From positions 386,570-418,569 of the forward strand of contig JADQBT010000002.1 of assembly GCA_016278485.1 (NCBI GenBank): a DNA stretch of 32,000 nt. Reading direction: 5' to 3'. Below the pieces are notes generated by a model. That model was not told the origin of the DNA and searched no databases. It worked only from the letters and a program-made list of their open reading frames with translations. The position numbers and the translations under genes are program-made. Origin of the DNA: Halanaerobiales bacterium (GTDB taxonomy: Bacteria; Bacillota; Halanaerobiia; Halanaerobiales; Halanaerobiaceae). Shown piece after piece: positions 1 to 16,081 of this stretch. Numbering within the stretch: position 1 is the stretch's first letter; every line of letters starts with the position of its first letter.

Positions 1-1053
1 TAGCTGATCAGTTACAAAAGGTTCACCAATATCTTTTAATAAGATAAAGTTTATTTTTCCTGACCGCACTTTTTTATCACTTTTCATTAATTCTATAATT
101 TTACTTACATCCAACTTTTTTGGTAAATTAAAATCAAAGTTAAATTTTTTAATTAAACTAAGAATCTCATCAAACTTTGTTGAACTAAGCCGGTTTTCCT
201 TTAAAGATATATATGCAGCAAAAACTATGCCAATTATCACACCTTCACCATGCCTATAATCTTTGAAATCTGTATAAGATTCCAGCGCATGGCCCAAAGT
301 ATGACCTAAGTTGAGCATCCTTCTTTTGCCAAAATCATCCTGATCAAATCTTACGTAATTATTTTTAATTCGTAAAGCCTGATAAATCACTTCAGATAGC
401 AATTGCTGATTAAAATCATTTCGTTTAATTATCTCAGCACAACTTTTATTAAGCAAATGATAAAAGTTATTATCAAGCAAGGCATATTTTATCAACTCAC
501 CTAGTCCAGAATTAAAATCTCTATTTGTAAGAGTTTCTAGAAATTTTAAATCAATTAACACTTGGTCTGGATGATAGATAGAACCTATCACATTTTTTTT
601 GTTCTGATAATTGATAGCTGTTTTCCCACCAACACTACTATCGATCTGGGCCAAAAGGGTAGTCGGAACCTGTATATAGCTTATTCCTCGCTGATAAGTA
701 GAAGCTAAATACCCTGCTAGATCTCCAACAGTCCCACCTCCAATTGCAATGATAAGATCATCACGGGAAAAATTATTTTCAATTAACTTTTTATATCCTT
801 TTAGTAAGTAATCAACTGATTTAGTAGCTTCTCCCCCCGGTATTTTAAAAAAAGTTTGTTGCAAAGATGATTCAGCAAATGGCTGAGAAATTTCCTTATC
901 ATATATCGCAAATACTGTTTGGTCTATAATTAATAATACTTTTCTAGAATGATAATTATCCTCTAATATTTGCGCTAATTTAGGATATATATCACTGGTT
1001 ATCTCAATCACAGATCTTCGCTTGCTTCTAACAGGTTCAATCACTAATTTCAT
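1..1053 (-). CDS. aroB: 3-dehydroquinate synthase (C-terminal end runs off the window start)
   Basis: It is absent from the ORF track because it is open at the window edge. My minus-strand translation from the ATG at 1053 reads MKLVIEPVRSKRRSVIEITSDIYPKLAQILEDNYHSRKVLLIIDQTVFAIYDKE... It contains IAIGGGTVGDLAGYLAS (GGGxxGD loop) and MLNLGHTLGHALE (metal-binding motif), both typical of AroB. The start overlaps the aroK stop by 17 nt. Confidence 0.85.
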   Translation of the reverse strand, partial: MKLVIEPVRSKRRSVIEITSDIYPKLAQILEDNYHSRKVLLIIDQTVFAIYDKEISQPFAESSLQQTFFKIPGGEATKSVDYLLKGYKKLIENNFSRDDLIIAIGGGTVGDLAGYLASTYQRGISYIQVPTTLLAQIDSSVGGKTAINYQNKKNVIGSIYHPDQVLIDLKFLETLTNRDFNSGLGELIKYALLDNNFYHLLNKSCAEIIKRNDFNQQLLSEVIYQALRIKNNYVRFDQDDFGKRRMLNLGHTLGHALESYTDFKDYRHGEGVIIGIVFAAYISLKENRLSSTKFDEILSLIKKFNFDFNLPKKLDVSKIIELMKSDKKVRSGKINFILLKDIGEPFVTDQL

Positions 1054-1570
1054 AGTTTAAACCATCCTTTTTAACCAATCTATTATATATCTTGTCAACT
1101 ATATCTTCTGGCTTTTGATCTGTCGTATCAATTTGATGCGGAAAGATTTGATAATATTTTTGACGCTCTTTCATTAATTGTTTAATTTCTTTTAATGGGT
1201 TTTCAGTATTAAGTAAAGGCCGATCATTAGAGTTTTTTAATCTCTCATAAATTTCAGTTGCTTCTGCTGTCAAACAAATAACTGTTGCATATTTTTTCAT
1301 TAACGTTCGATTATCTGGACTTAAAACAGCCCCACCACCAATAGCAAAGACAATATTTTTTTGATTTAATAATACTCTTTTCAAGACTATCTTTTCCTGA
1401 TGGCGAAAGAATTTTTCACCACATTCATTAAAAATTTGTGGAATTGATTTTCCAGTAGCCAGTTCAATTAATGCATCACTATCCAGAAAAAGAAATTCAA
1501 ATCTTTCTGCTAGCAGTCTTCCAATAGTAGTCTTACCTGTACCCATAAAACCAGTTAATGTTATAATCAT
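1037..1570 (-). CDS. aroK: shikimate kinase
   Basis: MIITLTGFMGTGKTTIGRLLA carries a Walker A motif, and the size is about 177 aa. The first 20 aa of the ORF-track entry look like upstream over-extension. The ATG at 1570 forms an ATGA overlap with the stop of the upstream gene. Confidence 0.9.
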   Translation of the reverse strand: MIITLTGFMGTGKTTIGRLLAERFEFLFLDSDALIELATGKSIPQIFNECGEKFFRHQEKIVLKRVLLNQKNIVFAIGGGAVLSPDNRTLMKKYATVICLTAEATEIYERLKNSNDRPLLNTENPLKEIKQLMKERQKYYQIFPHQIDTTDQKPEDIVDKIYNRLVKKDGLNYEISD

Positions 1571-2928
1571 CAGCCTCGTTCCTCTCTTATCGAAATCAAC
1601 ATAGCAGCCCCTGTTCCAAGGATAATCCAAAAAAGAGGTGCAACAGACACGACACTAATATTAAATACCGCCTGGCTTAGATAACCAGTTAAAGAAAATA
1701 AGATTGCTACCTGATAGCACTCTGTTTTACTAAACTTAATTAGCGGGAAAATTATTACTCCAATTAATAACAGATATAATACTAAGCCCGGAAGACCAGC
1801 TGTAATTCCTAACTGAAGGTATTCTGAATGAACTTTATCTAAAATTGTGTTTTTATTACCAGTAAAGTTCTGGTAAATTTCTTGAGGATAAACTTCTGCA
1901 AATGTATCAAGCCCTGTCCCAGTTAGGGGTTTTTTGAAAAGCAAGGGAAGACTAGTCTGATAAATAAAGATGCGATAACTACCAACCTTAGCTACTTCCC
2001 CACTTCTTTGCTGACTTAGCTTCTGGAAATCATGCAAGATACTAAAAAATCTATTTCCCGTATAACCTGAATTATAAAAATTCATTCCCAGAGTGATAAT
2101 AATAAAAATTAGGATCATTAAAAATATTTTTTTGTAATCCAATTTATTTTTTATTTTTAAATAAATTAAAGCCAAAAAAGCAGTTAATATTAAACCTAGC
2201 CAGACTCCTCTGGTTGAAGTAGCCAACGTAAAGGCGAAAAAAATAGCAGATAAGCAATATAAAATGATTGTGTTTTTCTTTTCTTTGCTCAAAAGGTAGA
2301 AAACAACTGCAGGTGGTAATATCAGTGCTGTAAAACTACCTGCAAAATTTGGGTTACCAAAAGTTGCAAAACTTCTTCTGACCCAATTTACTCTTACTGG
2401 GTCCCTTGCAATAAAATCAATTCCAAAAAACTGTAACAAACCATAAATTGAAACTAAACTACCAGTTAGAAAGAAGACCTTAAATATTAGCTTTATCTCT
2501 GCTTTATTTCTAATTAAATTAGCTGTTATAAAAAATAAAAGCAGATAGATTGAAAATGTTATAAATCCTTCCCACCGAAAAGGCCGGCCATATAAAGCTA
2601 TAAATTTATATTCAGAAAAAAGAGTAGAAATAATTAACTGAAAAAATAAAAATAAAGCAATTATATTAATTTTATTTTTTTTGAATAATTGTCCATTCTT
2701 TTTAACTAAAAAATATGTAACTATTAAAATACTAACTGCAATAAGATAAAGAAATCTTACTCTAGGCAAATAAATATTATCATTTCTCAGTAGTTTATAT
2801 TCCGAAAAATCAGTCTGTACCAACTCCATGCTCCCCGGGTATGGGAGATATAATAATGGAATAACAAAAATAGTAACTAAGATTAGAATAAAAATTAATT
2901 TATGTAATTTGTTTTCCGTTATTAACAT
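1570..2928 (-). CDS. polytopic membrane protein of the O-antigen ligase / Wzy_C family (WaaL or pilin O-oligosaccharyltransferase TfpO/PglL-like)
   Basis: The protein has about 10-12 hydrophobic segments. Wzy_C-like motifs include TSTRGVWLGL, NPNFAGSF and VHSEYLQLGITAGLPGL. The preferred start is the ATG at 2928 (MLITENK...), preceded by GAGGG plus 7 nt. The ORF-track start at 2952 would overlap aroC. Confidence 0.7.
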   Translation of the reverse strand: MLITENKLHKLIFILILVTIFVIPLLYLPYPGSMELVQTDFSEYKLLRNDNIYLPRVRFLYLIAVSILIVTYFLVKKNGQLFKKNKINIIALFLFFQLIISTLFSEYKFIALYGRPFRWEGFITFSIYLLLFFITANLIRNKAEIKLIFKVFFLTGSLVSIYGLLQFFGIDFIARDPVRVNWVRRSFATFGNPNFAGSFTALILPPAVVFYLLSKEKKNTIILYCLSAIFFAFTLATSTRGVWLGLILTAFLALIYLKIKNKLDYKKIFLMILIFIIITLGMNFYNSGYTGNRFFSILHDFQKLSQQRSGEVAKVGSYRIFIYQTSLPLLFKKPLTGTGLDTFAEVYPQEIYQNFTGNKNTILDKVHSEYLQLGITAGLPGLVLYLLLIGVIIFPLIKFSKTECYQVAILFSLTGYLSQAVFNISVVSVAPLFWIILGTGAAMLISIREERG

Positions 2929-2938
2929 TAGAAAACCC

Positions 2939-4117
2939 TCATTTAAGGCCACGACTTATTTTGTAAGAGTTAAAGGAATTTAAAATATCCTCTAAATTAT
3001 CCCCACCAAATTTTTCAATAATAGCATCTGCCAAAATATAAGCAACTAATGCTTCAGCTACAACACCTGCTGCAGGTAAAGCGGTTACATCTGATCTCTC
3101 TATTTGAGCAGTAACTTTCTTTTTGGTTTTCATATCCACCGTCTCTAATGGTTGATAAAGTGTAGGAATTGGCTTCATTGCAATTTTTATGACTAGCGCA
3201 GAACCATTTGTTATTCCTCCCTCTAGACCACCAGCTCGATTCGTATTGCGATAATAGCCTTTCTTTTTATTATAATATAATTCATCGTGAAATTCACTAC
3301 CAGAAAACTCGATATCAGCAAAGGTATTAGCAAATTCAACACCTTTTACAGCGGGAATACTCATTAAAGCACTTGTCAATCTACTATCAAGTCGCTTATC
3401 CCAACTAGTATAACTACCGAGTCCTGGTGGTAACGGGGTTGTCCTTATTTCACAGATACCTCCTAGTGTATCATGACTTTCTCTTGTTTGATCTATGTAG
3501 TTGATCATTTTTTCTTCTTTTTCTTTATCAAAACAATGAAATGGTGATTCAGCAACCTCTGCTTTAAATTTTTGCCAATTTTCTATTGCAATATCTTTAC
3601 TATCAAAATTAACTTTCATCTCTCCAAGCTGAATAACATGACTAATAATATCGATCTTCAAATTACGCAAAAAAGACATTATTATTGCTCCAGCTGCTGT
3701 TCTAATGGCGGTTTCTCTGGCACTAGCCCTTTCCAGAACATTTCTAATATCAGAAAAATTATATTTTATACTTCCAGCAAAATCCGCATGACCAGGCCGA
3801 GGTTGACTTATCTTATTATCCACTTTTATATCCCAGACCGACATAATCTCCTGCCAGTTAGCCCAATCTTTATTTTTAATTAAGAGTCCAATTGGTGAAC
3901 CAATAGTTAGGCCATTTCTAATTCCAGAAATTATTTTCAAGTCATCTGATTCTATCTGCATCCGACCGCCTCTACCATATGCGTTTTTTCTACGCCTTAG
4001 CATATAATTAATAATATTTTTATCTATTTTAATTCCTGCAGGTAAACCTTCCAAAATTGCCATAATTGAATGACCATGTGATTCACCAGCAGTTCTTAAA
4101 CTAAGCAAAATTATCAC
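2939..4117 (-). CDS. aroC: chorismate synthase
   Basis: LRTAGESHG at the N-terminus, RPGHADF, SARETA and GGISNG-like GGITNG are all chorismate synthase hallmarks. The start codon is GTG at 4117, or more likely TTG at 4108 (MLSLRTAGESHG), which lies 10 nt after GGAG. Confidence 0.95.
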   Translation of the reverse strand: MIILLSLRTAGESHGHSIMAILEGLPAGIKIDKNIINYMLRRRKNAYGRGGRMQIESDDLKIISGIRNGLTIGSPIGLLIKNKDWANWQEIMSVWDIKVDNKISQPRPGHADFAGSIKYNFSDIRNVLERASARETAIRTAAGAIIMSFLRNLKIDIISHVIQLGEMKVNFDSKDIAIENWQKFKAEVAESPFHCFDKEKEEKMINYIDQTRESHDTLGGICEIRTTPLPPGLGSYTSWDKRLDSRLTSALMSIPAVKGVEFANTFADIEFSGSEFHDELYYNKKKGYYRNTNRAGGLEGGITNGSALVIKIAMKPIPTLYQPLETVDMKTKKKVTAQIERSDVTALPAAGVVAEALVAYILADAIIEKFGGDNLEDILNSFNSYKISRGLK

Positions 4118-4122
4118 ACTCC

Positions 4123-4154
4123 AAAAAAAATCTAGAGAATTCTATCTCTAGATT
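4123..4154 (-). terminator. intrinsic-terminator-like hairpin after the cluster B secretin, abutting the aroC RBS
   Basis: The minus strand reads AATCTAGAG-ATAGAATT-CTCTAGATT followed by TTTTTT, then GGAG. The stem is a perfect 9 bp (4129-4137 pairing with 4146-4154), is AT-rich, and is followed by a T-run. Confidence 0.5.
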
Positions 4155-4191: not shown

Positions 4192-5511
4192 TTAATGCTT
4201 CAGTATTTTTAATAATTCTTCTTCTGTAAGACTAATAAAGTCAACTCTCTTATTATTCTTGATTATTTCTGCATCTTTTACTCTTTTTGATGGTTTTATA
4301 ACTTGTTTTTCTCTTTTTTCATAATCATTATTATCATTATGGTTATTATCGTTTTCAATTATATGGGGTGTTAAAAATATAATTATTTCACTTGTTATTT
4401 CACTTACTTCTTCACTTGAAAATAGTCTTCCCAAGAGGGGGATTTGACTCAAAATTGGTACATTTGCATAACTTTTTAATATATCTTTTTTTATTAACCC
4501 ACCAATAGCAAGCGTTTCTCCATTTTTTAACCTGACTGTAGTTTCAATATTTCTTGAATTAATAGCAGGTAACCCATCACTAAACTTTTGACCAAGACTA
4601 CTTACAGAGGGTTTTACTTCTAAAATTATTTGATCATTTGCAACAATATTGGGTAAAAACTCTAATACAATGCCTGCATCTATATATTTTATTGTCGAAA
4701 CTGTTTTTCCATCTTCAATTGTCTCTAATTTAACAGGTACTTGATCACCAATTAGCAATTTTGCTTTTTTACCATCAAGGGTCATAAGACTAGGGTTTGC
4801 CAATAATTCCGCTGCCCCTTGTTCTTCTAAAGATCGTAAAAGATCTGGCCAGGTAAGTTGAATTTTGTCTAATTGACCTGAATCATTTTTAATAAAATTC
4901 AAGGTTGAAAGTTGCTCAGTATGGATACCTAATTTTTTTAATTCTGTCCTGGATACTTCCTCAACACGTGCCTCTACCATTACCTGTTTTCTTGGTAAAT
5001 CTAATTTTTTAACGGTCTTTTTAAGACTATTTATTAAATTATTATCACCAGAGACTATTAAATTTTGTTGGTCGAAAGATATTTTTAAGTCTGGATAGAA
5101 TTCTTTTAATTGATTTAATATTTCCTCTGGTTTGCGATAAGCTAATTGAATAATTCTTTGCGAGTTATTTTGAAAGAGACTCTTCATTCTTTCTTCCGTT
5201 GCTACAAAAATTGTATTCTTTTCCAGTCGATACTGTAAATGATAACCGGTAGTTATTAATTTCAGTGCTTCTTCAAATGTTAAATCCTTTAAAAAAAGTG
5301 TTACCACACCCGTCACAGACTTATCAATAACAATATTATATTCTGCTAACTGAGCTAGCATCAATAATGAATCTTGCAAATCTGCTTGGTCTAAATTAAT
5401 GCTAATTGTTTTTTCTAAACTCCCACCAGCAAAAATATTACTTTCTCCCATAAGTATTAACAAAAACAACAAAATTACTACTATTATTTTACTATTTATT
5501 TTGTTTTTCAT
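4192..5511 (-). CDS. outer-membrane secretin (PilQ/GspD family), cluster B
   Basis: There is a Sec signal peptide (...ESNIFA/GGS). An N0/STN-like domain follows (ISINLDQADLQDSLLMLAQLAEYNIVID...). The C-terminal secretin domain includes ANPSLMTLDGKKAKLLIGDQVPV, TTVRLKNGETLAIGGL, VPILSQIPLLGRLF and IIIFLTPHII. Confidence 0.85.
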   Translation of the reverse strand: MKNKINSKIIVVILLFLLILMGESNIFAGGSLEKTISINLDQADLQDSLLMLAQLAEYNIVIDKSVTGVVTLFLKDLTFEEALKLITTGYHLQYRLEKNTIFVATEERMKSLFQNNSQRIIQLAYRKPEEILNQLKEFYPDLKISFDQQNLIVSGDNNLINSLKKTVKKLDLPRKQVMVEARVEEVSRTELKKLGIHTEQLSTLNFIKNDSGQLDKIQLTWPDLLRSLEEQGAAELLANPSLMTLDGKKAKLLIGDQVPVKLETIEDGKTVSTIKYIDAGIVLEFLPNIVANDQIILEVKPSVSSLGQKFSDGLPAINSRNIETTVRLKNGETLAIGGLIKKDILKSYANVPILSQIPLLGRLFSSEEVSEITSEIIIFLTPHIIENDNNHNDNNDYEKREKQVIKPSKRVKDAEIIKNNKRVDFISLTEEELLKILKH

Positions 5512-6118
5512 ACCATTTCTCCTTAATATTTAAGTGGCCTTCAATCTCCTTATATTTAAATTTTATATAATTTTTATCTATCTCTATTAACTTATATTCT
5601 GCTATTTCATCGCCAACTTTTAAATAATAATCCTTACTTTGATAAGATAATAAAACAAGAAAATTATTATCTGATCCAATAATACCTTTTAAGATAAATG
5701 GAATTTTTATCTTTAATTGCTTATTTTTTATAACTTTTTCAACTGCTAATATTTCAACTTTTTCTATTGGTTCTTTTTCTTTAATTTCTCTTGAGCTTGT
5801 CTCTTTTTTTTGACTACTAATAGCAAACTTTTCACTAACTTCTTCTTTTTGAGTAAAAAAAGGATCTTGTAAGTCTTGATAACTATAAAGCAATCTACCA
5901 CTCGCAAAGTTATTAATATCTTTAATTTCCTTTTCTGTACTTTCCTTTTCTCTATTTTCTATTATTATATTTTGTTTATTAGGCTTAGATTTAAGGACGC
6001 TTTGCTGACTAAGCTCATTTGCTTTACTAACTTGTTGTTTTTGGTCATTTAGATAGTAAATTATCAACATTAAAATAATAAGACAAATTAAAATTAGAAT
6101 AATATATTGTCTTTTCAT
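5492..6118 (-). CDS. PilP-like pilus assembly protein (membrane-anchored), cluster B
   Basis: It has an N-terminal TM segment, a K/E-rich linker and a C-terminal beta-domain (ILKGIIGSDNNFLVLLSYQSKDYYLKVGDEIAEYKLIEIDKNYIKF) resembling PilP. The gene sits directly upstream of the secretin, and its start overlaps the upstream stop as TAATG. Confidence 0.45.
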   Translation of the reverse strand: MKRQYIILILICLIILMLIIYYLNDQKQQVSKANELSQQSVLKSKPNKQNIIIENREKESTEKEIKDINNFASGRLLYSYQDLQDPFFTQKEEVSEKFAISSQKKETSSREIKEKEPIEKVEILAVEKVIKNKQLKIKIPFILKGIIGSDNNFLVLLSYQSKDYYLKVGDEIAEYKLIEIDKNYIKFKYKEIEGHLNIKEKWYEKQNK

Positions 6119-6585
6119 TAATAATCTCTCCAGATTATATTTATTAAAGTTATATTTGCTCTCAAATTATGACTGAGCTTAGTAATCTTTAAACGCTCAA
6201 TCTTATAGGTTAATTTACTTTGTTGTAATAGGGCAAAAAACTTAATTAAAGAAAAATAATTTCCTTCCAATAAAATATTTACTTTATTGTCAATTAAATT
6301 TGGATAATAACCTGACATTATTAATGTTGTATTTTCTAAACAACTCTTTATCTCTTTTAAAAGTTCATGATCATTATAATTTTTTTTTATTATTGGAGAA
6401 GGAACAGTTGCTTTATTATTTTTAACTAAATTTTTAATTTTATTTTGGATTTGTTGATTCTCTATTTTAATCGATTCTAAATGGTGATAATCTCTAATCC
6501 AATAACGGATATTGATTAAAATCACAAATAGCAAAAAAATAATTAACGTTATTTTAATTCGCTTATTCAGCATGATAATCACCAA
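6118..6585 (-). CDS. PilO-like pilus assembly protein, cluster B
   Basis: It has a single N-terminal TM segment followed by a coiled-coil (QQIQNKIKNLVKNNK) and then an alpha/beta region. It lies between the PilN-like and PilP-like genes. The real start may be the ATG at 6573 (MLNKRIK). Confidence 0.5.
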   Translation of the reverse strand: MVIIMLNKRIKITLIIFLLFVILINIRYWIRDYHHLESIKIENQQIQNKIKNLVKNNKATVPSPIIKKNYNDHELLKEIKSCLENTTLIMSGYYPNLIDNKVNILLEGNYFSLIKFFALLQQSKLTYKIERLKITKLSHNLRANITLINIIWRDY

Positions 6586-7063
6586 TTTTTAGAGGAATAA
6601 CTAATATTACGAATTGTAATTTATCTTGTCCCTTCATTTCCAATAATTGAACATCTTCTAAATAAGGCGATAGGCCCAGTTTTTCTAAATATTTAATAAC
6701 TTCGTCTGACTGTTTTGCTCTCCCCGAAATTTGGATAGTTCCTTTAGTTAGTAGAATAGAATTTAATTCTATTCGATTAGTGATAGCAAGTGCCAATTCT
6801 TCCAAAATTAAATCCAATGAATAGTTCTTATTATCAACAGTTTTTTTATCAGGTCCATTTTGCTTTAATTTTATGTTTTCTAAACTTAATAATTTATTAT
6901 CTAGATTACTTTTTAAATTTAGTTCTGTTTTAACTCTTTTTTGATATATTTGTGACAGAGCAAAAATCAATAAAAAAATTAGCAAGAGTATGATTAAAAT
7001 TAGCGTTAAATTTAACTTATTTTTCTTCAACTCGTCTTTTTTATAATTTAGATTAATTAACAT
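6563..7063 (-). CDS. PilN-like pilus assembly protein, cluster B
   Basis: The N-terminal MLINLN resembles the conserved PilN INLLP PilM-binding motif. A single TM segment and a coiled-coil follow. The gene lies immediately after PilM and overlaps it. Confidence 0.55.
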   Translation of the reverse strand: MLINLNYKKDELKKNKLNLTLILIILLLIFLLIFALSQIYQKRVKTELNLKSNLDNKLLSLENIKLKQNGPDKKTVDNKNYSLDLILEELALAITNRIELNSILLTKGTIQISGRAKQSDEVIKYLEKLGLSPYLEDVQLLEMKGQDKLQFVILVIPLKIGDYHAE

Positions 7064-8010
7064 GCTCTAACTCCACCCAATGCTCCACCTAAAGCCGTTG
7101 CAAAGCAGGATGGTATTTTATAATCTTCAGCAAATAATTTTACATTCATTGCTAAATTTCCTATTAATAACTGACGAAAACTTTTTAAATCTACTCCTCC
7201 TCCGGTAATTAAAACTGTTTCAGTTCTAAAATCACAATATCTTTTTAAATAAATATTTGTTTCATCTATTTCTCTAATTAAATTATTTACTGCAAATTGC
7301 AGATACTTGCTTGCATTGTTTTTTTGATAATAATTATCTTTTTCTTTTAATTTTTTTGCATCTTGATAGAGTAACTGCAATTCATGCATAATTATCTCTG
7401 TAAAATAGTAGCTATTAAAATCAACTTCTCTAACTAAATTGATACAGTCATTATTAAGATGGATAATTTTAGTTCCCTGGCATCCTAAATCAACTATCAT
7501 TAGCTCGTCCAATTTGGGATAATAATATCTTGCTAAATTGAATAATGCCAGTGGTTCTGCTGTGATAATAATATTTTTTTGTTCTCTTGTACTAAATAAG
7601 CCAATCAATTGGTCGATAGTATTTTTGGGAGATGCAAAAAGATAGCTAATGCCGGTTTTATTATGCTTAGGTTCCCAGAGATCATAAATATATTTAATAG
7701 GATTACCTAAATTAGCAAGAACATTTTCTATCTCTTGCTCAGATTTAACTTCCGTACTTGGTAAAACCTTGAAAATTACATCATTTACAGGTAAGGAGAT
7801 TATAATATTATATTTTAATAATTTTTCTTTCCGTAAAATATTGATTATATCTTGTAATTCATGATATGCAATCTTTTTTGAATAAACTTTATTATATTCA
7901 TAAACTTTAGTCTGTTTGATATTTATCTGGTCTAATTTCTTTATATATTTTAAGTTAATTACTTTAACCGCAGAACTTCCAAAATCTAGTGATGTTAACT
8001 TTTTAACCAC
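7057..8010 (-). CDS. pilM: PilM-like actin-fold pilus assembly ATPase, cluster B
   Basis: Actin-like phosphate and adenosine motifs are present: LTSLDFGSSAVKVINL, VDLGCQGTKIIHL and LITGGGVDLKSF. The start is GTG at 8010, preceded by AAGGAG plus 8 nt. Confidence 0.75.
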   Translation of the reverse strand: MVKKLTSLDFGSSAVKVINLKYIKKLDQINIKQTKVYEYNKVYSKKIAYHELQDIINILRKEKLLKYNIIISLPVNDVIFKVLPSTEVKSEQEIENVLANLGNPIKYIYDLWEPKHNKTGISYLFASPKNTIDQLIGLFSTREQKNIIITAEPLALFNLARYYYPKLDELMIVDLGCQGTKIIHLNNDCINLVREVDFNSYYFTEIIMHELQLLYQDAKKLKEKDNYYQKNNASKYLQFAVNNLIREIDETNIYLKRYCDFRTETVLITGGGVDLKSFRQLLIGNLAMNVKLFAEDYKIPSCFATALGGALGGVRAC

Positions 8011-8015
8011 TATTT

Positions 8016-8402
8016 TTACTCCTTTCGTACAATTTCAACCTCTTGCATGACAAAATCATTCTTAGTTAGTTTTGCTCTGATTTCTACAATCGTATCATCT
8101 GCTTTTCCAGAAACTTCAAGATAATAAAAAAATAATTCTTCAGTAATGACAAGTTCAGCTGATTGTTGATTATTTAATGTTATAGTTTTTTCATTACTAA
8201 TATTCTCTTCGGAATTTACTAATAGATATTTAGCAACAATTATACCTGATCTTGCCGCCATTTTTGCCAGCTTATAATTTCTTGTTTTATTGCTTAATTG
8301 TAAATTTATATAAGATCCATGTACCAATAATGAACTAATCAAGCCTAAGGTTACAATTAGTAGCAAAATTGAAATTAATATATAACCATGATTGTTTAAT
8401 AT
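8016..8402 (-). CDS. PilX/ComGG/GspK-like minor pilin-associated protein, cluster B (start codon uncertain)
   Basis: The ORF-track start (TTG at 8366) leaves only about 14 hydrophobic residues. In frame upstream the sequence reads N-I-L-N-N-H-G-Y-I-L-I-S-I, giving NNHGYILISILLLIVTLGLISSLLV, which parallels the cluster A PilX_N protein (NENGSALLLIMVIIVVLTVIG). AKMAARSGI resembles the PilX_N AEAG motif. AAGGAG lies 8 nt before ATA at 8402, and no ATG, GTG or TTG is available upstream. Confidence 0.5.
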   Translation of the reverse strand: MLNNHGYILISILLLIVTLGLISSLLVHGSYINLQLSNKTRNYKLAKMAARSGIIVAKYLLVNSEENISNEKTITLNNQQSAELVITEELFFYYLEVSGKADDTIVEIRAKLTKNDFVMQEVEIVRKE

Positions 8403-8405
8403 GTT

Positions 8406-8942
8406 TTATTCTCCTTTCCCTAATGGATTTGCAGAAATTATTAGCTGATTATTCAACAAATCGTCCGTTATTTTAATTCGCAAGTAGATTAATTCTTCAT
8501 TCGTTGATAGCCAACCAAATTCTAGTTTATTAATCTTTTCTATTAAAGCAGTTGGTCTTTTATAAATGATTAAACCATTTTCTTCATGACCAATAGATCT
8601 TCCTAATTTTCTTAAACCACCTGAATAATATTCTTCAAAAGATATCCACTGCCATTCATCTTTATAGATAGTATAAAGATTAATCCTACTTTCACTTAAA
8701 AGTTCAATCTCTTTTGCCATTTCAATTTTTTCTACTATATAATCAGCGACCAATTGGCTATCTTGCATCACACCTACCCGATAATCTACCTTTTCTAAAC
8801 TGTCATTAAATAGTAAAATTGTTTTTAAAATTAGCATGCTTACTACTGCAAGCAATAAAATAGCTATTAAATTTTCTAATAAGGTAAAACCCTGACAGTT
8901 TTTGAAATATATTTTACATGGCTTCTGCTTCATTAATTTCAT
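8406..8942 (-). CDS. minor (pseudo)pilin with prepilin-type N-terminus (PilW/GspJ position), cluster B
   Basis: It has a class III signal peptide, ...NCQG/FTLLENLIAILLLAVV, with G at -1 and E at +5. Confidence 0.8.
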   Translation of the reverse strand: MKLMKQKPCKIYFKNCQGFTLLENLIAILLLAVVSMLILKTILLFNDSLEKVDYRVGVMQDSQLVADYIVEKIEMAKEIELLSESRINLYTIYKDEWQWISFEEYYSGGLRKLGRSIGHEENGLIIYKRPTALIEKINKLEFGWLSTNEELIYLRIKITDDLLNNQLIISANPLGKGE

Positions 8943-9366
8943 TCCACTCAGCTAAAATTGTAGATATTACAAAATCATTACTAATGTTTTTACTACTATA
9001 ATTCACATTGATATTGACCTGATATAATCCGGGATAAATAGTCTCATTCTCTGCATAAGGTTTAACTTCTACTACAGTTGCCTCAATCTGCTTATTTAAA
9101 AATATTTCTTCTAATTCTGCCAATAAAATAATTATTTCAGACTGGCTTTTACCCACAAGTTTAGCTAATTCAACCTGTTCAGTATTCAAATAATTGACTA
9201 CTGACTCTCCCCAATTTGCTGCTTGATTACTATCTTCAATAAATGCTCTTACATCAAGAGCTGTGCTAATTGTTCTACTAAAACTAACCAGTACTACACC
9301 AGCCAGGGATATAGAAATTACTATCTCAAGTAATGTAAAACCACTTTTATTATTTAGATTTTTCAA
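8914..9366 (-). CDS. minor (pseudo)pilin with prepilin-type N-terminus (PilV/GspI position), cluster B
   Basis: The N-terminus MKNLNNKSG/FTLLEIVISISLAGVVLV is a class III signal peptide. Confidence 0.8.
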   Translation of the reverse strand: MKNLNNKSGFTLLEIVISISLAGVVLVSFSRTISTALDVRAFIEDSNQAANWGESVVNYLNTEQVELAKLVGKSQSEIIILLAELEEIFLNKQIEATVVEVKPYAENETIYPGLYQVNINVNYSSKNISNDFVISTILAEWNEINEAEAM

Positions 9367-9859
9367 TATTAATCCTCCCCATCTGATTAATTGTCACCTG
9401 AAAAATTCTTTCACCATCTCCCAAGCCAATCGTACCACTTAAGGCTGTGCCATAACCTGTAAAGCGAATTCTATCATAATAAGGATCAGCAACTAACACC
9501 GGACTAGAGTTTTTGTATAAAAGCAAGCTATCAGGATAACTTCCTTCTCTAATAACTTGCATTAGATTATCCTGGTCAAGATAATAAATTATATAGTCTG
9601 CTTTATAATCTTCATCTGTTTTATAAATATCATCTACTGAATAAACCCTTAGCCGATAAGTTTTATTATCAGCAATGGCTTTTGCTCTGGTCCAACGTAA
9701 ATCATTGCTAAGTATACCTATTGCTTCATTTAGTTCTGCTCTTGCTAGTTGCGACTGGCTAAAAATTATGGGAGCAGAGACAACTGAAAAAAGGACTAAA
9801 ACCATTAATAGTTCTATCAGTGTCAAACCTTTCTGATTGCTTAGATAGCTAATTATCAA
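9350..9859 (-). CDS. minor (pseudo)pilin, FimT/GspH-like, cluster B
   Basis: The N-terminus is ...SNQKG/LTLIELLMVLVLFSVV. LSNDLRWTRAKAIADNKTYRLRV resembles the GspH/FimT domain core. Confidence 0.75.
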   Translation of the reverse strand: MIISYLSNQKGLTLIELLMVLVLFSVVSAPIIFSQSQLARAELNEAIGILSNDLRWTRAKAIADNKTYRLRVYSVDDIYKTDEDYKADYIIYYLDQDNLMQVIREGSYPDSLLLYKNSSPVLVADPYYDRIRFTGYGTALSGTIGLGDGERIFQVTINQMGRINIEKSK

Positions 9860-10257
9860 GGTGTTGGAGTTGTAGTACTAGGACCAGCTACCATCCCATC
9901 TGAACTATTAACATAATAGTATTCATTGTCTGATGTTAAATAATAAGCTAAATATGATTTTTCATTATTACCAGATTGATAATTATAATCAGAACTTGGA
10001 TTTGACAAAGATAGGTCTAGATCAGTTAAAGTACCAATCTCAACTGCAGTAGTAGCTGTTGGGTAAGATTTTTGATCCATATAGTACATTTCTAAACCAT
10101 ACATAATATTATGCAGATCACTTTTTACTACAGTCAGGTCAGCTTTCTTTTTTACACCACTAAAACCAGGGACAGCAATACCGATTAATATCCCCAAAAT
10201 TACAATTACAATCATCAATTCAATTAATGTAAAGCCTTTTTCATTAATATTTTTCAT
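9856..10257 (-). CDS. major type IV pilin / pseudopilin, cluster B
   Basis: The N-terminus is MKNINEKG/FTLIELMIVIVILGILIGIAVP. It is the first pilin gene after the platform gene and has a strong RBS (AAAGGAGAG). It contains no cysteine and ends with the S/T/P tail GPSTTTPTP. Confidence 0.85.
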   Translation of the reverse strand: MKNINEKGFTLIELMIVIVILGILIGIAVPGFSGVKKKADLTVVKSDLHNIMYGLEMYYMDQKSYPTATTAVEIGTLTDLDLSLSNPSSDYNYQSGNNEKSYLAYYLTSDNEYYYVNSSDGMVAGPSTTTPTP

Positions 10258-10271
10258 TTTTTCTCTCCTTT

Positions 10272-11312
10272 TTAGCCAATTACAGTATATAACTGAAAAA
10301 TAGGCAATACCACAGTAACTGCAAGTAAACCAACTATAGCAGCCATAAAAACTATTAAAGCTGGCTCTAATAATGTCAACAATTTTTTAGTACCCTTTTC
10401 TAGTTTCTGTTGATAAAGTAGTGCTGCTTTATTCAGCATTAATGATAAACGACCTGTCTCCTCTCCCGTAATTATTAACTGATAGTAGATTTTAGGAATT
10501 AATTTATTTCCATTTAAGCTACTACTGAGACGACCTCCTTTCCTAATTATTAATTCAGTTTCTTCCATTATTTTCTGATATGAATTGTTATTAATAACTC
10601 CATTTGATATTTTAAGAGTAGTGATTAAATCCAAACCACTTTCCAGTAACATACTCATTGTTCCAGCAAGATTACTCAATATCGAATACTGATATAACTT
10701 ACCAATGATAGGAAAATATAATAAATAATTTTTTATAAATTTGACAGCTTTTTCTGTACTAAGTAAATAAAATATAGCCAAGATAAAGAGAAATAAAAAC
10801 ATAAGTAAATAAAATATATTTTCCTTAATAAATTCTCCAGAATTCAAAAGAATCATTGTAAGTAATGGTAAATCTTTTGAAAAATCTGAAAATATGCGTG
10901 AAAATGTAGGTAAAACTTGCCAGATGAAAAATATACCTGCTAAAAAGGTTACTATTAAGACAATTACTGGATAGTATAATAATTGTTTTATTTCAGCTTT
11001 TAGTTTATTTTCTCTTAAATAATGTTGATTAATTTCAGAAAAAGCTTCTGCTAATTTACCAGTTTGTTCTCCAACCTTTACCATAGCAATAAATAAATCT
11101 GGAAAGTGTTGATTATGTTTTTTTAATGCTTCTGTCAAAGAAAATCCTGCTTCAATATCATTACTAACTTCATTAATGATATTGCTAATTAACTGATCAT
11201 CACTCTGAGATATTAATAAAGTAAGAGCAAGTTGTATCGGTAAGTCTGCATCTATTAATAAATATAATTGTTCTGCTATATAAAGCTTGTCCACTTTTTT
11301 CAATATCAACAC
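10272..11312 (-). CDS. GspF/PilC-family platform protein, short ComGB-sized form (346 aa), cluster B
   Basis: Two T2SSF-type repeats are present (LIDADLPIQLALTLL... and LLESGLDLITTLKIS...), along with 3 TM segments. The GTG start at 11312 directly follows the ATPase TAG stop, so the frame cannot be extended upstream. It lacks the roughly 60-aa N-terminal segment seen in the cluster A PilC. Confidence 0.85.
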   Translation of the reverse strand: MLILKKVDKLYIAEQLYLLIDADLPIQLALTLLISQSDDQLISNIINEVSNDIEAGFSLTEALKKHNQHFPDLFIAMVKVGEQTGKLAEAFSEINQHYLRENKLKAEIKQLLYYPVIVLIVTFLAGIFFIWQVLPTFSRIFSDFSKDLPLLTMILLNSGEFIKENIFYLLMFLFLFILAIFYLLSTEKAVKFIKNYLLYFPIIGKLYQYSILSNLAGTMSMLLESGLDLITTLKISNGVINNNSYQKIMEETELIIRKGGRLSSSLNGNKLIPKIYYQLIITGEETGRLSLMLNKAALLYQQKLEKGTKKLLTLLEPALIVFMAAIVGLLAVTVVLPIFQLYTVIG

Positions 11313-15101: not shown

Positions 15102-15543
15102 TATTATCTAACCCCATCTCAAAATTAACTAAATAATTATCTTTTTTCATAACAATTTGATTAGCTTTAATCTCAATCAACTGATAACCATTTAATTTTT
15201 GATTTAGCTGCAAAAACTCTAATCTACCTTCATTTTCAATAACTGCAATTTTATCCTGATCCGAAGTAACAATTCCTTTTAAGAGAAAAGATGGGTTAAA
15301 TGAATTTAAGACCAACTCTGCCTGTTCGTTATTATTTTCAGCCGTTGTTTTAGCTTCACTAATTGCTTCATCTGTCAGACTACCTTCATTTTCTTGATAA
15401 CGAAAATCTAGGAATGGATTTCGCTCTTTTTCTTCTGAAACTAACTCTGTTTCTGCCTGAACCAAACTGACCATGGCAAATATTATCAGGTTTATAAGTA
15501 AAAAATATAATACAATATTATGTTTTCTTATTAAACTAAACAT
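15091..15543 (-). CDS. PilP-like pilus assembly protein, cluster A
   Basis: It has an N-terminal signal/anchor, an acidic linker and a C-terminal LLKGIVTSDQDKIAVIENEGRLEFLQLNQKLNGYQLIEIKANQIVM, which parallels the cluster B protein and PilP. It sits directly upstream of the secretin. Confidence 0.5.
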   Translation of the reverse strand: MFSLIRKHNIVLYFLLINLIIFAMVSLVQAETELVSEEKERNPFLDFRYQENEGSLTDEAISEAKTTAENNNEQAELVLNSFNPSFLLKGIVTSDQDKIAVIENEGRLEFLQLNQKLNGYQLIEIKANQIVMKKDNYLVNFEMGLDNNER

Positions 15544-16081
15544 TTAACTCACCTGCTTTGTTTGGTTCTAGTAGACATTTTATATTTACTTCAATTAGTC
15601 CATTATTAGCGTTTATCGGAGTAAAGTTTAATTCATCTAAAACAAATAATTTATCATATCTGGTTAAACTACCTATAAAAAGTACAAGATTTTCAAAATT
15701 ACCTGCTGCTTTAAAAAATACTGCTAGCTTGGGATCACTACCTTCAGGTATATACCTTTCAATATTTATATTCGCCATTTTTGCTCGAGCTGCCAATAGT
15801 TTGAAAAAGTCTTCTTCAGATTTCCAATCAGGCGGATAAAGTGAGAATAATTCCATTTCTAGTTCTTTTATCTTTTTTTCTAATTCTGGAATTTGTCTAA
15901 CCTTTACTAAAAGCGAATTTAATTGAGTATTTTTTTGCGTTAATGAGTTATCTAAATCATCAATTATCTGTTTTTGCGGTAGGTGATAATAGAAATAATA
16001 TAAGCCAATAATTATCATAAAAAGAGCAATTAACAAAAGATACTTTTCTCTATTAGATAATCGATTTAACATATTAATCAT
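15536..16081 (-). CDS. PilO-like pilus assembly protein, cluster A
   Basis: It has a single N-terminal TM segment (YLLLIALFMIIIGLYYFYY), a coiled-coil (LEKKIKELEMELFSL) and an alpha/beta C-terminus. It lies after the PilN-like gene. Confidence 0.55.
   Translation of the reverse strand: MINMLNRLSNREKYLLLIALFMIIIGLYYFYYHLPQKQIIDDLDNSLTQKNTQLNSLLVKVRQIPELEKKIKELEMELFSLYPPDWKSEEDFFKLLAARAKMANINIERYIPEGSDPKLAVFFKAAGNFENLVLFIGSLTRYDKLFVLDELNFTPINANNGLIEVNIKCLLEPNKAGELNV

What the first reader, a model, noticed from the sequence alone, without database searches (positions are those of the whole stretch)
1570..2928. Wzy_C / O-antigen-ligase-like gene in the same transcriptional string as pilins that end in Ser/Thr/Pro tails: candidate C-terminal pilin O-glycosylation
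A polytopic Wzy_C-like protein is wedged between aroC and aroK, downstream of both pilus clusters, and overlaps aroK at an ATGA junction. Three pilins end with a T-T-P-type tail. Major pilin A ends ...TPSGISTTP (codons 20654-20680). Major pilin B ends ...GPSTTTPTP (9859-9885). Minor pilin 17689-18222 ends ...KQTTP. Established knowledge is that in Pseudomonas aeruginosa 1244 the O-antigen-ligase-like TfpO (PilO) glycosylates the C-terminal serine of pilin, and that Neisseria PglL is a related Wzy_C enzyme. My inference is that the shared C-terminal S/T/P tails are acceptor sites for this enzyme. The alternative is that it is simply the WaaL O-antigen ligase of a diderm cell.
Basis: partly seen in the sequence, partly recalled or inferred. 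Interest (0 to 1): 0.65.

Follow-up and report, generated by a model that had tools for sequence, protein, structure and literature searches.

The report
Pilus-linked pilin glycosylation enzyme candidate
A membrane enzyme of the O-antigen-ligase type, encoded after two type IV pilus gene clusters in a salt-loving spore-forming bacterium, belongs to a family that sits beside pilin genes in many Firmicutes with no LPS, and those pilins share a Ser/Thr-X C-terminus, so it probably attaches sugars to pilins rather than building LPS.

Summary
Window 1570-2928 (-) encodes a 452-aa, 12-helix Wzy_C protein (Pfam E 1.5e-19; AlphaFold pLDDT 93; only structural match WaaL 7TPG). The catalytic Arg/Arg/His equivalents are present (R240, R319, H367). 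It lies between aroC and aroK, downstream of two type IV pilus clusters. Three pilins end in ...TTP or ...TPTP.

Two details need correction. The aroK junction is TGATG (1-nt overlap), not ATGA. A terminator-like hairpin plus U8 lies between the last pilus gene and aroC.

Comparative genomics favours the pilin-glycosylation reading over WaaL:
- The closest homologue outside this organism (Orenia, 45%) lies pilA-[Wzy_C]-pilD. Acetohalobium has a long form in the same position.
- The family is widespread in monoderm Firmicutes. It lies within 10 kb of type IV or Tad pilus genes in 24 of 46 well-flanked loci.
- The commonest neighbours are pilins and prepilin peptidases, never LPS genes.
- Associated major pilins (11/15) and Flp pilins (9/10) have a penultimate Ser/Thr, often ...TTP (background 10%).

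No PglL_A or Wzy_C_2 domain is present, and the size matches TfpO/TfpM. The best reading is a TfpO-like pilin O-oligosaccharyltransferase, a Firmicute variant with a different tail motif. No biochemical evidence exists.

The parts
1570..2928 (-). Wzy_C-family gene (452 aa; stop codon 1572-1570): candidate pilin O-oligosaccharyltransferase
   Evidence: ORF and sequence. Pfam Wzy_C E 1.5e-19. AlphaFold pLDDT 93, 12 TM helices. The only structural match is WaaL 7TPG, TM 0.56-0.62.
1771..2250 (-). Wzy_C domain (residues 227-386), including the large outer loop with the catalytic residues
   Evidence: Pfam envelope. Alignment to WaaL 7TPG residues 185-344.
2209..2211 (-). Codon for R240 (TSTRGVW), equivalent to E. 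coli WaaL R215 and PglL R224
   Evidence: At least 90% conserved in the family alignment A1. Coordinates. Residue roles from PMC3643930.
1972..1974 (-). Codon for R319 (GSYRIFI), equivalent to WaaL R288 and PglL R298
   Evidence: Invariant in A1. Aligned to VRLKIWH of 7TPG. Coordinates.
1828..1830 (-). Codon for H367 (DKVHSEY), equivalent to WaaL H338, PglL H349 and TfpM H286
   Evidence: At least 90% conserved in A1. Aligned to HAHND of 7TPG. This His is required for activity in Wzy_C enzymes (PMC9829042).
2939..4117 (-). aroC (chorismate synthase), immediately upstream. Its stop codon overlaps the Wzy_C Shine-Dalgarno.
   Evidence: Pfam E 1e-112. Sequence.
1037..1570 (-). aroK (shikimate kinase). 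Its ATG overlaps the Wzy_C stop by 1 nt (TGATG).
   Evidence: Pfam SKI E 1.5e-45. Sequence. aroB, aroQ, pepP, efp and spoIIIA follow.
4121..4154 (-). Terminator-like hairpin (10-bp stem, 6-nt loop) plus U8, between secretin 2 and aroC
20651..21085 (-). Major pilin A of cluster 1. Tail ...TVTPSGISTTP (tail codons 20654-20680). Proposed acceptor.
   Evidence: N_methyl and T2SSG hits. Tail class conserved in Halanaerobiales homologues. The Orenia orthologue ends ...LSTTTTP with the Wzy_C gene immediately downstream.
9856..10257 (-). Major pilin B of cluster 2. Tail ...GPSTTTPTP (tail codons 9859-9885). Proposed acceptor.
   Evidence: N_methyl hit. Halanaerobium counterparts end GP[DE][ST]TEP[ST][LF].
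17689..18222 (-). Minor pilin ending ...KQTTP (tail codons 17692-17706). Possible acceptor.
   Evidence: N_methyl hit. No detectable homologues. Unrelated pilin-like ORFs in L012 and L020 also end in TTP.
19922..20647 (-). Prepilin peptidase PilD
   Evidence: ORF. Homologous genes flank the Wzy_C homologue in Orenia, Acetohalobium and the Tad loci.
13338..25240 (-). Type IV pilus cluster 1 (pilB, pilT, pilC, pilin A, pilD, minor pilins, pilMNOP, secretin)
4192..12983 (-). Type IV pilus cluster 2 (pilB2, pilC2, pilin B, minor pilins, pilMNOP-like, secretin 2)

Best explanation
The gene encodes a pilus-associated O-oligosaccharyltransferase of the Wzy_C (WaaL/PglL/TfpO) superfamily.

Proposed mechanism (inferred). 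A glycan is assembled on undecaprenyl pyrophosphate by genes elsewhere in the genome and flipped to the outer face of the cytoplasmic membrane. There the 12-helix enzyme uses its outer-loop Arg/Arg/His site (R240, R319, H367) to transfer the glycan en bloc. The acceptor would be a Ser/Thr hydroxyl in the C-terminal tail of membrane-anchored prepilins or pilins, before they are polymerised. Candidate acceptors are pilin A (...GISTTP), pilin B (...GPSTTTPTP) and possibly the minor pilin (...KQTTP). The recognised feature would be a Ser/Thr next to the free C-terminus ([ST]-X-COOH, here T-P-COOH).

What is shown: fold, domain, conserved catalytic residues, gene position, family-wide linkage to pilin genes, and tail-motif enrichment.

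What is inferred: protein (not lipid A-core) as acceptor, the acceptor residue, and the donor glycan.
For: - Enzyme identity. Wzy_C domain. Confident WaaL-like model. R240/R319/H367 are conserved with spacing 79/48. That matches E. coli WaaL 73/50 and PglL 74/51 (residue roles from PMC3643930, and PMC9829042).
- Subclass. At 452 aa it falls in the TfpO (440-470) and TfpM (420-440) range, not PglL (550-600). No PglL_A or Wzy_C_2 hit occurs in any of 26 family members, even at E<=10. A 2025 review describes this as the TfpO/TfpM pattern.
- Context in the same order. Orenia has pilC-pilA-[Wzy_C, 45% identity]-pilD. Acetohalobium has pilins-[Wzy_C]-pilD. L090 has pilC-[Wzy_C]-pilin-pilD. Other Halanaerobiales have secretin-(aroC)-Wzy_C-aroK.
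- Family distribution. It occurs in monoderm Clostridia, Bacilli and Erysipelotrichia. Of 46 loci with at least 12 kb of flank, 18 carry type IV pilus genes and 6 carry Tad loci within 10 kb.
- Neighbours. The top immediate neighbours are N_methyl pilins (7/72 upstream) and prepilin peptidase (7/77 downstream). No LPS or glycosyltransferase enrichment is seen.
- Tail covariation. Penultimate S/T occurs in 11/15 linked major pilins, 4/17 other pilin-like ORFs, and 10% of all ORFs. It occurs in 9/10 linked Flp pilins, which end ...GLTTP, KMTP, KMSP and KLTTTP. It occurs in 60/100 pilin A homologues.
- No LPS genes lie within 10 kb downstream or anywhere in the window.
- Pilin adjacency and absence from LPS loci are the published criteria for calling O-OTases rather than WaaL (PMC3643930).
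Against: - There is no biochemical evidence, and no glycan-assembly genes are in the window.
- In this organism the gene is not adjacent to a pilin. It is translationally coupled to aroK, and a terminator-like hairpin separates it from the pilus genes.
- About 37% of well-flanked family loci show no pilus gene within 10 kb, for example Halanaerobacter, Neobacillus and Oxobacter.
- The tails end in Pro. For TfpO, any residue after the acceptor Ser abolishes glycosylation.
- The pilin A model places GISTT as an edge beta-strand, not a floppy tail.
- Tail statistics include related species and are not phylogenetically independent.
- The host is a diderm with a presumed LPS, so a WaaL role cannot be excluded by sequence alone. 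WaaL and O-OTases are not separable by simple sequence analyses such as BLAST.
Confidence: 0.55

Rival explanations
1. It is the WaaL O-antigen ligase of this diderm Firmicute. It would join Und-PP-linked O-antigen to lipid A-core, and its position next to the pilus genes would be incidental.
For: - The host has secretins and is a Halanaerobiales diderm.
- The only solved structure that matches is WaaL, by sequence (E 5.8e-07) and by fold.
- Many database homologues are named 'O-antigen ligase family protein'.
- The gene is in an aro operon, not strictly a pilus operon.
Against: - The curated RfaL model scores 16.9 bits against a cutoff of 277.
- Homologues at 30-38% identity are common in monoderm Clostridia and Bacilli that lack LPS.
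- The closest homologues outside this organism are embedded between pilA and pilD.
- No LPS or O-antigen genes appear among neighbours in about 75 loci or near this gene.
- WaaL is the only family member with a solved structure, so the structural hit does not discriminate between functions.
Confidence: 0.08
2. It is a general O-oligosaccharyltransferase (PglL-like or WsaB/WsfB-like in function) that glycosylates many envelope or S-layer proteins. Pilins would be only one class of substrate, or not substrates at all.
For: - Wzy_C O-OTases for S-layer proteins exist in Firmicutes (WsaB, WsfB; PMC2943079).
- About a third of family loci are not near pilus genes.
- Here the gene sits in a housekeeping aro operon.
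Against: - No PglL_A, Wzy_C_2 or TPR domains are present.
- The protein is small, as pilin-dedicated TfpO and TfpM are.
- Neighbour enrichment is specific for pilins and prepilin peptidase.
- The tail motif covaries with the gene in two unrelated pilin classes.
Confidence: 0.15
3. It is a polysaccharide polymerase or ligase (Wzy-like or IctB-like) for an exopolysaccharide or wall polymer that is functionally coupled to pili, not a protein-modifying enzyme.
For: - There are weak sub-threshold hits to O-ag_pol_Wzy (E 6e-4), to the repeat-unit polymerase TIGR04370 (23.5 bits against a cutoff of 40), and to IctB TIGR00947 (51 bits against a cutoff of 366).
Against: - All of these hits are far below the curated cutoffs.
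- No Wzx flippase, glycosyltransferase or chain-length regulator neighbours are enriched.
- This reading does not explain the conserved [ST]-X-COOH pilin and Flp tails.
Confidence: 0.12

Closest known systems
TfpO (PilO) of Pseudomonas aeruginosa 1244 and Acinetobacter spp.: pilin-specific Wzy_C O-oligosaccharyltransferase
   Same: - Wzy_C domain with the conserved catalytic His/Arg residues.
- Similar size (440-470 aa against 452 aa).
- No PglL_A or Wzy_C_2 domains.
- Genetic linkage to the major pilin gene, directly downstream of pilA in the Orenia orthologue.
- The proposed acceptor lies at the pilin C-terminus.
   Different: - In this window the gene is about 7 kb and 18 kb from the two major pilin genes, inside aroC-aroK.
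- The pilins end in Pro (or N/L/F in relatives) with Ser/Thr penultimate. TfpO needs the Ser/Thr to be the last residue.
- The host phylum is Bacillota, not Gammaproteobacteria.
- The family is also linked to Flp/Tad pilins.
- Sequence relatedness to TfpO could not be measured here.
TfpM of Moraxellaceae (PMC9829042)
   Same: - A small Wzy_C enzyme (420-440 aa) encoded next to its pilin-like substrate.
- It recognises the C-terminal tail and requires the conserved His.
   Different: - The TfpM acceptor is the terminal Thr.
- It belongs to a different phylum.
WaaL O-antigen ligase (Cupriavidus metallidurans structure 7TPG; E. coli RfaL)
   Same: - Same fold (TM 0.56-0.62).
- Same catalytic Arg/Arg/His arrangement.
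- The only solved structure in the superfamily.
   Different: - 13% identity in the structural alignment.
- Fails the curated RfaL model.
- Not in an LPS locus.
- The family is abundant in monoderms without LPS.
PglL / PglS general O-oligosaccharyltransferases (Neisseria, Acinetobacter)
   Same: - Wzy_C core.
- Frequent adjacency to pilin genes (21/31 in PMC3643930).
   Different: - They are larger (550-620 aa).
- They carry PglL_A and Wzy_C_2 domains, which are absent here.
- They glycosylate internal sequons.
WsaB / WsfB S-layer O-oligosaccharyltransferases of Geobacillus stearothermophilus and Paenibacillus alvei
   Same: - Wzy_C-domain protein O-OTases already proposed in Firmicutes.
   Different: - They are encoded in S-layer glycan (slg) clusters with glycosyltransferases.
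- They are TPR-associated.
- Their substrate is the S-layer protein, not pilins.

Membership tests
Wzy_C superfamily (PF04932; WaaL/PglL/TfpO/Wzy-like GT-C-type enzymes) | Significant match to the Wzy_C profile above the gathering threshold | tested here: met
   E 1.5e-19, 70.7 bits against a cutoff of 31.7, residues 227-386. All 26 aligned relatives also match.
Wzy_C superfamily (PF04932; WaaL/PglL/TfpO/Wzy-like GT-C-type enzymes) | Polytopic WaaL-like fold with the catalytic Arg, Arg and His on the outer loop | tested here: met
   pLDDT 93 model with 12 long helices. WaaL 7TPG is the top fold hit. R240/R319/H367 are conserved and align to the WaaL motif.
WaaL O-antigen ligase | Matches a curated WaaL/RfaL equivalog model | tested here: not met
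   NF012031 RfaL scores 16.9 bits against a cutoff of 277.
WaaL O-antigen ligase | Encoded within or beside LPS core or O-antigen biosynthesis genes | tested here: not met
   The neighbours are aroC, aroK, aroB, aroQ and pilus genes. No LPS or glycosyltransferase families are enriched among the immediate neighbours of about 75 homologues.
WaaL O-antigen ligase | Orthologues restricted to LPS-bearing (diderm) organisms | tested here: not met
   Homologues at 30-38% identity occur in Clostridium, Sedimentibacter, Neobacillus, Aquibacillus, Eubacterium and Erysipelotrichaceae.
WaaL O-antigen ligase | Ligates O-antigen to lipid A-core | not testable with these tools
   Needs an LPS profile of a mutant, or complementation of an E. 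coli waaL mutant.
TfpO/TfpM-type pilin-specific O-oligosaccharyltransferase | Wzy_C-only architecture, about 420-470 aa, lacking PglL_A and Wzy_C_2 | tested here: met
   452 aa, with only Wzy_C detected even at E<=10. The class definitions come from PMC9829042 and PMC12645811.
TfpO/TfpM-type pilin-specific O-oligosaccharyltransferase | Gene immediately adjacent to its cognate pilin gene | tested here: inconclusive
   Not met in this window: the gene is 6.9 kb from pilin B and 17.7 kb from pilin A, inside aroC-aroK. It is met in the closest homologues outside this organism, Orenia, and for long forms in Acetohalobium and L090. It is also met in several Clostridia (L025, L031, L035, L042-L044).
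TfpO/TfpM-type pilin-specific O-oligosaccharyltransferase | Cognate pilin ends in Ser or Thr as the very last residue | tested here: not met
   The window pilins end in Pro with Thr penultimate. Among 100 pilin A homologues the last residue is S/T in 8 and the penultimate residue is S/T in 60.
TfpO/TfpM-type pilin-specific O-oligosaccharyltransferase | Falls in the TfpO or TfpM clade in a phylogeny of O-OTases | not tested
The paper's supplements are not held.
TfpO/TfpM-type pilin-specific O-oligosaccharyltransferase | Transfers an Und-PP-linked glycan to pilin | not testable with these tools
   Needs mass spectrometry of pili or reconstitution in glyco-engineered E. coli.
PglL/PglS general O-oligosaccharyltransferase | PglL_A (PF15864) and Wzy_C_2 (PF11846) domains flanking Wzy_C, in a protein of about 550-620 aa | tested here: not met
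   Neither domain is found in the window protein or in 25 relatives at E<=10. The length is 452 aa.
IctB family (TIGR00947, 'putative bicarbonate transporter') | Score above the equivalog cutoff | tested here: not met
   51.4 bits against a cutoff of 366.4. The 'inorganic carbon transporter' names on homologues are carried-over annotation.

The most novel reading that the evidence does not exclude
This gene would represent a previously unrecognised class of pilin-tail O-oligosaccharyltransferases spread across Bacillota, in both monoderm and diderm members. The class would serve both type IVa pilins and Flp (Tad) pilins. It would recognise a Ser/Thr one residue from the free C-terminus ([ST]-[PNLF]-COOH, archetype ...TTP), rather than the terminal Ser/Thr used by TfpO and TfpM. 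That would make pilin O-glycosylation a common feature of Gram-positive type IV filaments, and it would be the first oligosaccharyltransferase assigned to Flp pilins.
Probability: 0.4. Interest if true: 0.75.

Novelty: new variant of a known kind. Interest (0 to 1): 0.6.

Why it matters
Pilin-specific O-oligosaccharyltransferases (TfpO, TfpM, PglS) are known only from a few Proteobacteria. They are valued as bioconjugate-vaccine tools because they recognise very short C-terminal tags.

Type IV pili of Gram-positive and diderm Firmicutes are treated in the reviews I read as unmodified. The 2019 monoderm review contains no mention of glycosylation.

If this family glycosylates pilins, several things would follow:
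- Post-translational glycosylation would be a widespread feature of Firmicute type IVa and Tad pili.
- It would explain the conserved S/T/P tails.
- It would correct the misleading 'O-antigen ligase' and 'bicarbonate transporter' annotations in LPS-less bacteria.
- It would provide new enzymes with a compact, different sequon (...TTP-COOH) for glyco-engineering.

The hypothesis is directly testable with cultured strains such as Orenia metallireducens, Acetohalobium arabaticum, Halanaerobium spp., Clostridium zeae and Aquibacillus halophilus.

Tried and rejected
- Structure-based discrimination. The model is confident, but the PDB holds only one relative, WaaL 7TPG. The fold therefore cannot separate a ligase from an O-OTase.
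- Curated NCBIfam models. Only sub-threshold hits were found, to IctB, a repeat-unit polymerase and RfaL. No model exists for TfpO, TfpM or this family.
- Homologue search with the TTP-tailed minor pilin. It returned only the window protein itself. BLASTP against TTP-tailed pilin-like ORFs in L012 and L020 showed no similarity beyond the N-terminal helix. Orthology of that pilin, and conservation of its tail, could therefore not be established.
- Reference TfpM/TfpO sequences from the supplements of PMC9829042. None are held, so no O-OTase phylogeny could be built.
- Literature searches. I looked for a Wzy_C or O-antigen-ligase gene linked to Clostridial or Gram-positive type IV pili, or to Flp/Tad pilin glycosylation. 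Nothing describing this family was found. Absence from the held library is not proof of absence.
- A floppy disordered tail. The pilin A model (mean pLDDT 75) places GISTT as the last edge beta-strand, so I dropped the claim of a long disordered extension.
- Co-transcription with the pilus genes. I could not support it. A hairpin plus U8 precedes aroC, and promoter-like matches are at the level expected by chance.
Full report
**1. What is in the sequence**

All genes of the window run on the minus strand. ORF 1570..2952 has a GTG at 2952 and an ATG at 2928. The ATG is preceded by GAGGG at 2940-2936, and public gene calls use the same 452-aa product. The protein matches Pfam Wzy_C (PF04932) at E 1.5e-19, 70.7 bits against a cutoff of 31.7, over residues 227-386.

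The upstream gene (2939-4117) is chorismate synthase and the downstream gene (1037-1570) is shikimate kinase. On longer public contigs carrying the same genes, aroB, aroQ, a Xaa-Pro peptidase, efp and the spoIIIA operon follow.

Upstream lie two complete type IV pilus clusters:
- Cluster 1: pilB, pilT, pilC, pilin A, pilD, minor pilins, pilMNOP and a secretin (25240-13338).
- Cluster 2: pilB2, pilC2, pilin B, minor pilins, pilMNOP-like genes and secretin 2 (12983-4192).

aroE precedes both clusters at 26216-25311. The pilus genes are therefore embedded in an aro operon: aroE-[pil1]-[pil2]-aroC-[Wzy_C]-aroK-aroB-aroQ.

The three pilin tails are exactly as reported: pilin A ...TPSGISTTP, pilin B ...GPSTTTPTP, and the minor pilin ...KQTTP. 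Three of nine pilin-like ORFs end in [ST]P, against 1.2% of 1241 ORFs in related loci (p about 1e-4).

Two details need correcting:
- The Wzy_C/aroK junction is ...GGC TGA TGA..., with the aroK ATG starting on the A of the first TGA. This is a TGATG 1-nt overlap rather than ATGA.
- A perfect 10-bp hairpin followed by eight U's lies at 4154-4121, between the stop of secretin 2 and the aroC ribosome-binding site. The gene is firmly coupled to aroC and aroK. Co-transcription with the pilus genes would need read-through.

**2. The protein itself**

An AlphaFold model built on 26 relatives is confident (mean pLDDT 93, pTM 0.93). It shows twelve long helices plus a small beta-hairpin in the first outer loop. 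The only significant structural match in the PDB is the WaaL O-antigen ligase of Cupriavidus metallidurans (7TPG; TM 0.56-0.62, 13% identity). It is also the only sequence match (E 5.8e-07).

The family alignment has invariant or near-invariant R240 (TRG/S), R319 (GSxRxFIW) and H367 (DKAHNEYLQ). Their spacing is 79/48 residues. That mirrors the functionally required R215/R288/H338 of E. coli WaaL and R224/R298/H349 of Neisseria PglL (PMC3643930). The equivalent His is required in TfpM (PMC9829042). The protein therefore looks like an active enzyme of this superfamily.

Curated models do not place it in a known subfamily. RfaL scores 16.9 bits (cutoff 277), IctB 51 bits (cutoff 366), and the repeat-unit polymerase model 23.5 bits (cutoff 40). 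Neither it nor any of 25 relatives has a PglL_A or Wzy_C_2 domain, even at E<=10. At 452 aa it falls in the published size range of the pilin-dedicated TfpO (440-470) and TfpM (420-440), not PglL (550-600). A 2025 review notes that PglL_A and Wzy_C_2 are absent from TfpO and TfpM.

**3. Where relatives of the gene sit**

This is the decisive evidence.

Within Halanaerobiales:
- The best-scoring homologue outside this organism (45% identity, Orenia metallireducens) lies in pilB-pilT-pilC-pilA-[Wzy_C]-pilD-minor pilins-pilMNOPQ. A second Orenia metallireducens assembly (L006, strain MSL40) shows the same arrangement.
- In Acetohalobium arabaticum the aro-embedded cluster reads aroE-pilB-pilT-pilC-pilin-pilin-[Wzy_C, 593 aa]-pilD-...-secretin-aroC.
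- Another Halanaerobiales contig has pilC-[Wzy_C, 600 aa]-pilin-pilD.
- These long forms are homologous to the window protein (26-36% identity, E 2e-27 and 1e-22). They carry an insertion of about 110 residues in the large outer loop.
- Other Halanaerobiales keep the short form at the end of the pilus cluster. The arrangement is secretin-aroC-Wzy_C-aroK in L010, L012 and L013, and secretin-Wzy_C-aroK in two Halanaerobium species. Two MAGs carry two or three tandem copies before aroK.
- Halanaerobacter is an exception, with no pilus gene within 10 kb.

Outside the order:
- A scan of one genome per species returned 80 loci. Most come from monoderm Firmicutes: Clostridium, Sedimentibacter, Anaerosolibacter, Haloimpatiens, Eubacterium, Neobacillus, Aquibacillus, Paenibacillus and Erysipelotrichaceae.
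- I called ORFs and compared them with the window's Pil proteins and with a Tad reference set. Among 46 loci with at least 12 kb of flank, 18 carry type IV pilus genes within 10 kb of the Wzy_C gene and 6 carry a Tad/Flp locus. Five are weak and 17 have none.
- In 14 of the 24 positives the pilus gene is within two genes of the Wzy_C gene.
- A Pfam census of the immediate neighbours gave N_methyl pilins as the commonest upstream family (7/72). Prepilin peptidase tied with shikimate kinase as the commonest downstream family (7/77 each). No LPS, flippase or glycosyltransferase family was enriched.
- I estimate that pilus loci occupy about 1% of a genome, so this linkage would be far above chance. 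That baseline is my own and was not computed.

Schulz et al. used the same two criteria, pilin adjacency and absence from LPS loci, to call O-OTases rather than WaaL, and they validated one case experimentally.

**4. The tails**

Pilins next to family members have a strikingly similar C-terminus.
- Major pilins directly upstream of the Wzy_C gene end ...LSTTTTP and ...GLVTTP (Orenia), and ...GILATN, ...DIASN, ...TVTTTY, ...PAPTN and ...DSLSN (Clostridia).
- Clostridium zeae and C. folliculivorans pilins, a few genes away from the Wzy_C gene, end ...TITTP and ...NTATP.
- Halanaerobium pilin B counterparts end ...GPDSTEPT[LF].

The penultimate residue is Ser/Thr in 11 of 15 such major pilins. 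The figure is 4 of 17 for other pilin-like ORFs in the same loci (Fisher p 0.006) and 10.3% for all ORFs (binomial p 1e-8).

Among 100 database homologues of pilin A, 60 have a penultimate Ser/Thr and only 8 a terminal one, against a body Ser/Thr frequency of 0.18. This set excludes a distinct ...GGP class. The alignment shows two conserved tail classes...T[PS]xGG[IV][ST] plus 1-7 S/T/P/E/D residues (the window's pilin A), and ...GPx[ST][ST]xP[ST][LF] (the window's pilin B).

Most telling are the Flp pilins. They are unrelated to type IVa pilins outside the N-terminal helix. In Tad loci adjacent to a family Wzy_C gene they end ...GLTTP...KMTP...KMSP...KLTTTP (twice)...KMTF (twice)...AVTN and ...KITG. 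Nine of ten have a penultimate Ser/Thr, and five of ten end in [ST]P.

These counts include related species and are not phylogenetically independent. Even so, recurrence of one tail in two pilin classes and across several orders argues that the tail and the enzyme belong together.

**5. Most likely mechanism**

What is shown:
- A WaaL-fold enzyme with intact catalytic residues.
- Family-wide genetic linkage to pilin and prepilin-peptidase genes, including in LPS-less bacteria.
- A covarying Ser/Thr-X-COOH tail.

What is inferred:
- The enzyme transfers a preassembled undecaprenyl-PP-linked glycan, at the outer face of the cytoplasmic membrane, to a Ser/Thr in the C-terminal tail of membrane-anchored pilins before assembly. 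This is what TfpO and TfpM do.
- The acceptor could be the penultimate Thr. It could also be the conserved Ser/Thr of the GGI[ST] motif a few residues upstream. This cannot be resolved here.
- The donor glycan genes are not in the window.

The pilin A model (mean pLDDT 75) places GISTT as the last edge beta-strand rather than a floppy tail. The site would then sit at the end of a strand on the surface of the globular domain.

I put this explanation at about 0.55.

**6. Rivals**

- WaaL (0.08). The host is a diderm, and WaaL is the only structural match. Against it: the curated RfaL model is not met, relatives abound in monoderms, and no relative sits in an LPS locus.
- A general O-OTase in the manner of PglL or the S-layer enzymes WsaB/WsfB of Firmicutes (0.15). 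This is compatible with the third of loci that lack pilus genes and with the housekeeping aro context here. It does not explain the small size or the specific neighbours.
- A Wzy/IctB-like polysaccharide polymerase or ligase (0.12). It rests only on sub-threshold hits and does not explain the tails.

**7. Comparison with what is known, and novelty**

In function the closest systems are TfpO/PilO and TfpM. Membership is not established for three reasons:
- The defining terminal Ser/Thr is not met, because Pro is terminal. For TfpO, adding residues after the Ser abolishes glycosylation.
- Adjacency to the pilin gene is met only in relatives.
- No phylogeny with reference enzymes could be built.

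The reviews and searches I could run describe O-OTases of the TfpO, TfpM, PglL and PglS classes only in Gram-negative bacteria, plus S-layer O-OTases in Firmicutes. A 2019 review of monoderm type IV pili contains no mention of glycosylation.

I therefore rate this as a new variant of a known kind: a Bacillota family of pilus-linked Wzy_C enzymes with a distinct tail motif that extends to Flp pilins.

**8. Verdict**

The interpretation passes both of its own computational refutation tests and is supported, but it remains a genomic inference. Interest is 0.6.

It is a concrete hypothesis that can be tested cheaply. It would add pilin glycosylation to Gram-positive pilus biology and could yield new short-tag glycosylation enzymes. 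The underlying principle, a Wzy_C enzyme modifying a pilin C-terminus, is already known.

Noticed in passing
window 4192-26216 (-): Two complete type IV pilus clusters lie in tandem inside a shikimate-pathway operon (aroE-[pil1]-[pil2]-aroC-Wzy_C-aroK-aroB-aroQ). Each has its own ATPase, platform protein, major pilin, PilMNOP set and secretin. The host also carries sporulation genes (spoIIIA downstream; a sigma factor, SleB and an AbrB/SpoVT-like gene upstream). The aro-embedded arrangement recurs in Acetohalobium, Halanaerobium and other Halanaerobiales.
   Followed up: partly
window 13338-13380 and 4192-4235 (-), C-termini of the two secretins: Both secretins end in a similar short motif after a Lys/Glu-rich stretch...ELTIEELKKIISN and ...SLTEEELLKILKH. 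The Orenia secretin carries a C-terminal LysM domain instead. This could be a conserved anchoring or partner-binding helix.
   Followed up: no
L014 5716-10116; L015 6238-8494: Halanaerobiales MAGs carry three (L014) or two (L015) tandem paralogues of the Wzy_C gene between the secretin and aroK. These may be one enzyme per pilin or per glycan.
   Followed up: no
L004 9645-11329; L021, L027, L037, L053, L054; protein P0065: In Tad/Flp loci of monoderm Firmicutes the Wzy_C homologue travels with a DUF192 (PF02643) gene. One database protein (P0065, 594 aa) is a DUF192-Wzy_C fusion. This suggests a functional partnership.
   Followed up: no
L088 11091-12872; L090 8130-9932: Long (about 600 aa) pilin-adjacent Wzy_C forms carry an insertion of about 110 residues in the large outer loop relative to the 452-aa window protein. 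The insertion could be an acceptor-recognition module.
   Followed up: partly
homologues P0002, P0006, P0027, P0054: Several homologues are annotated 'putative inorganic carbon (HCO3-) transporter'. This label is propagated from cyanobacterial IctB. The window protein scores only 51 bits against the IctB model cutoff of 366, so the label is probably misleading.
   Followed up: partly
window 20651-21181 (-): The pilin A ORF extends 32 codons upstream (TTG at 21181) of the likely ATG at 21085 (MEKMRKMLKSREG|FTLIEL). The public gene call is 169 aa (P0121), which would give an unusually long leader, so the start is ambiguous.
   Followed up: no
window residues 34-48 of the Wzy_C protein (about 2785-2829, -): A beta-hairpin insertion in the first outer loop (ELVQTDFSEYKLLRNDNIY) is present in Halanaerobiales members and in a few other aligned relatives (for example P0053 and P0054). 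It is absent from most Clostridial and Bacillus relatives.
   Followed up: no
L012 2-433; L020 9019-9399: Pilin-like ORFs with no detectable similarity to the window's minor pilin beyond the N-terminal helix also end in ...VTTTP and ...KYTTP. The tail therefore recurs on very divergent pilin bodies.
   Followed up: partly
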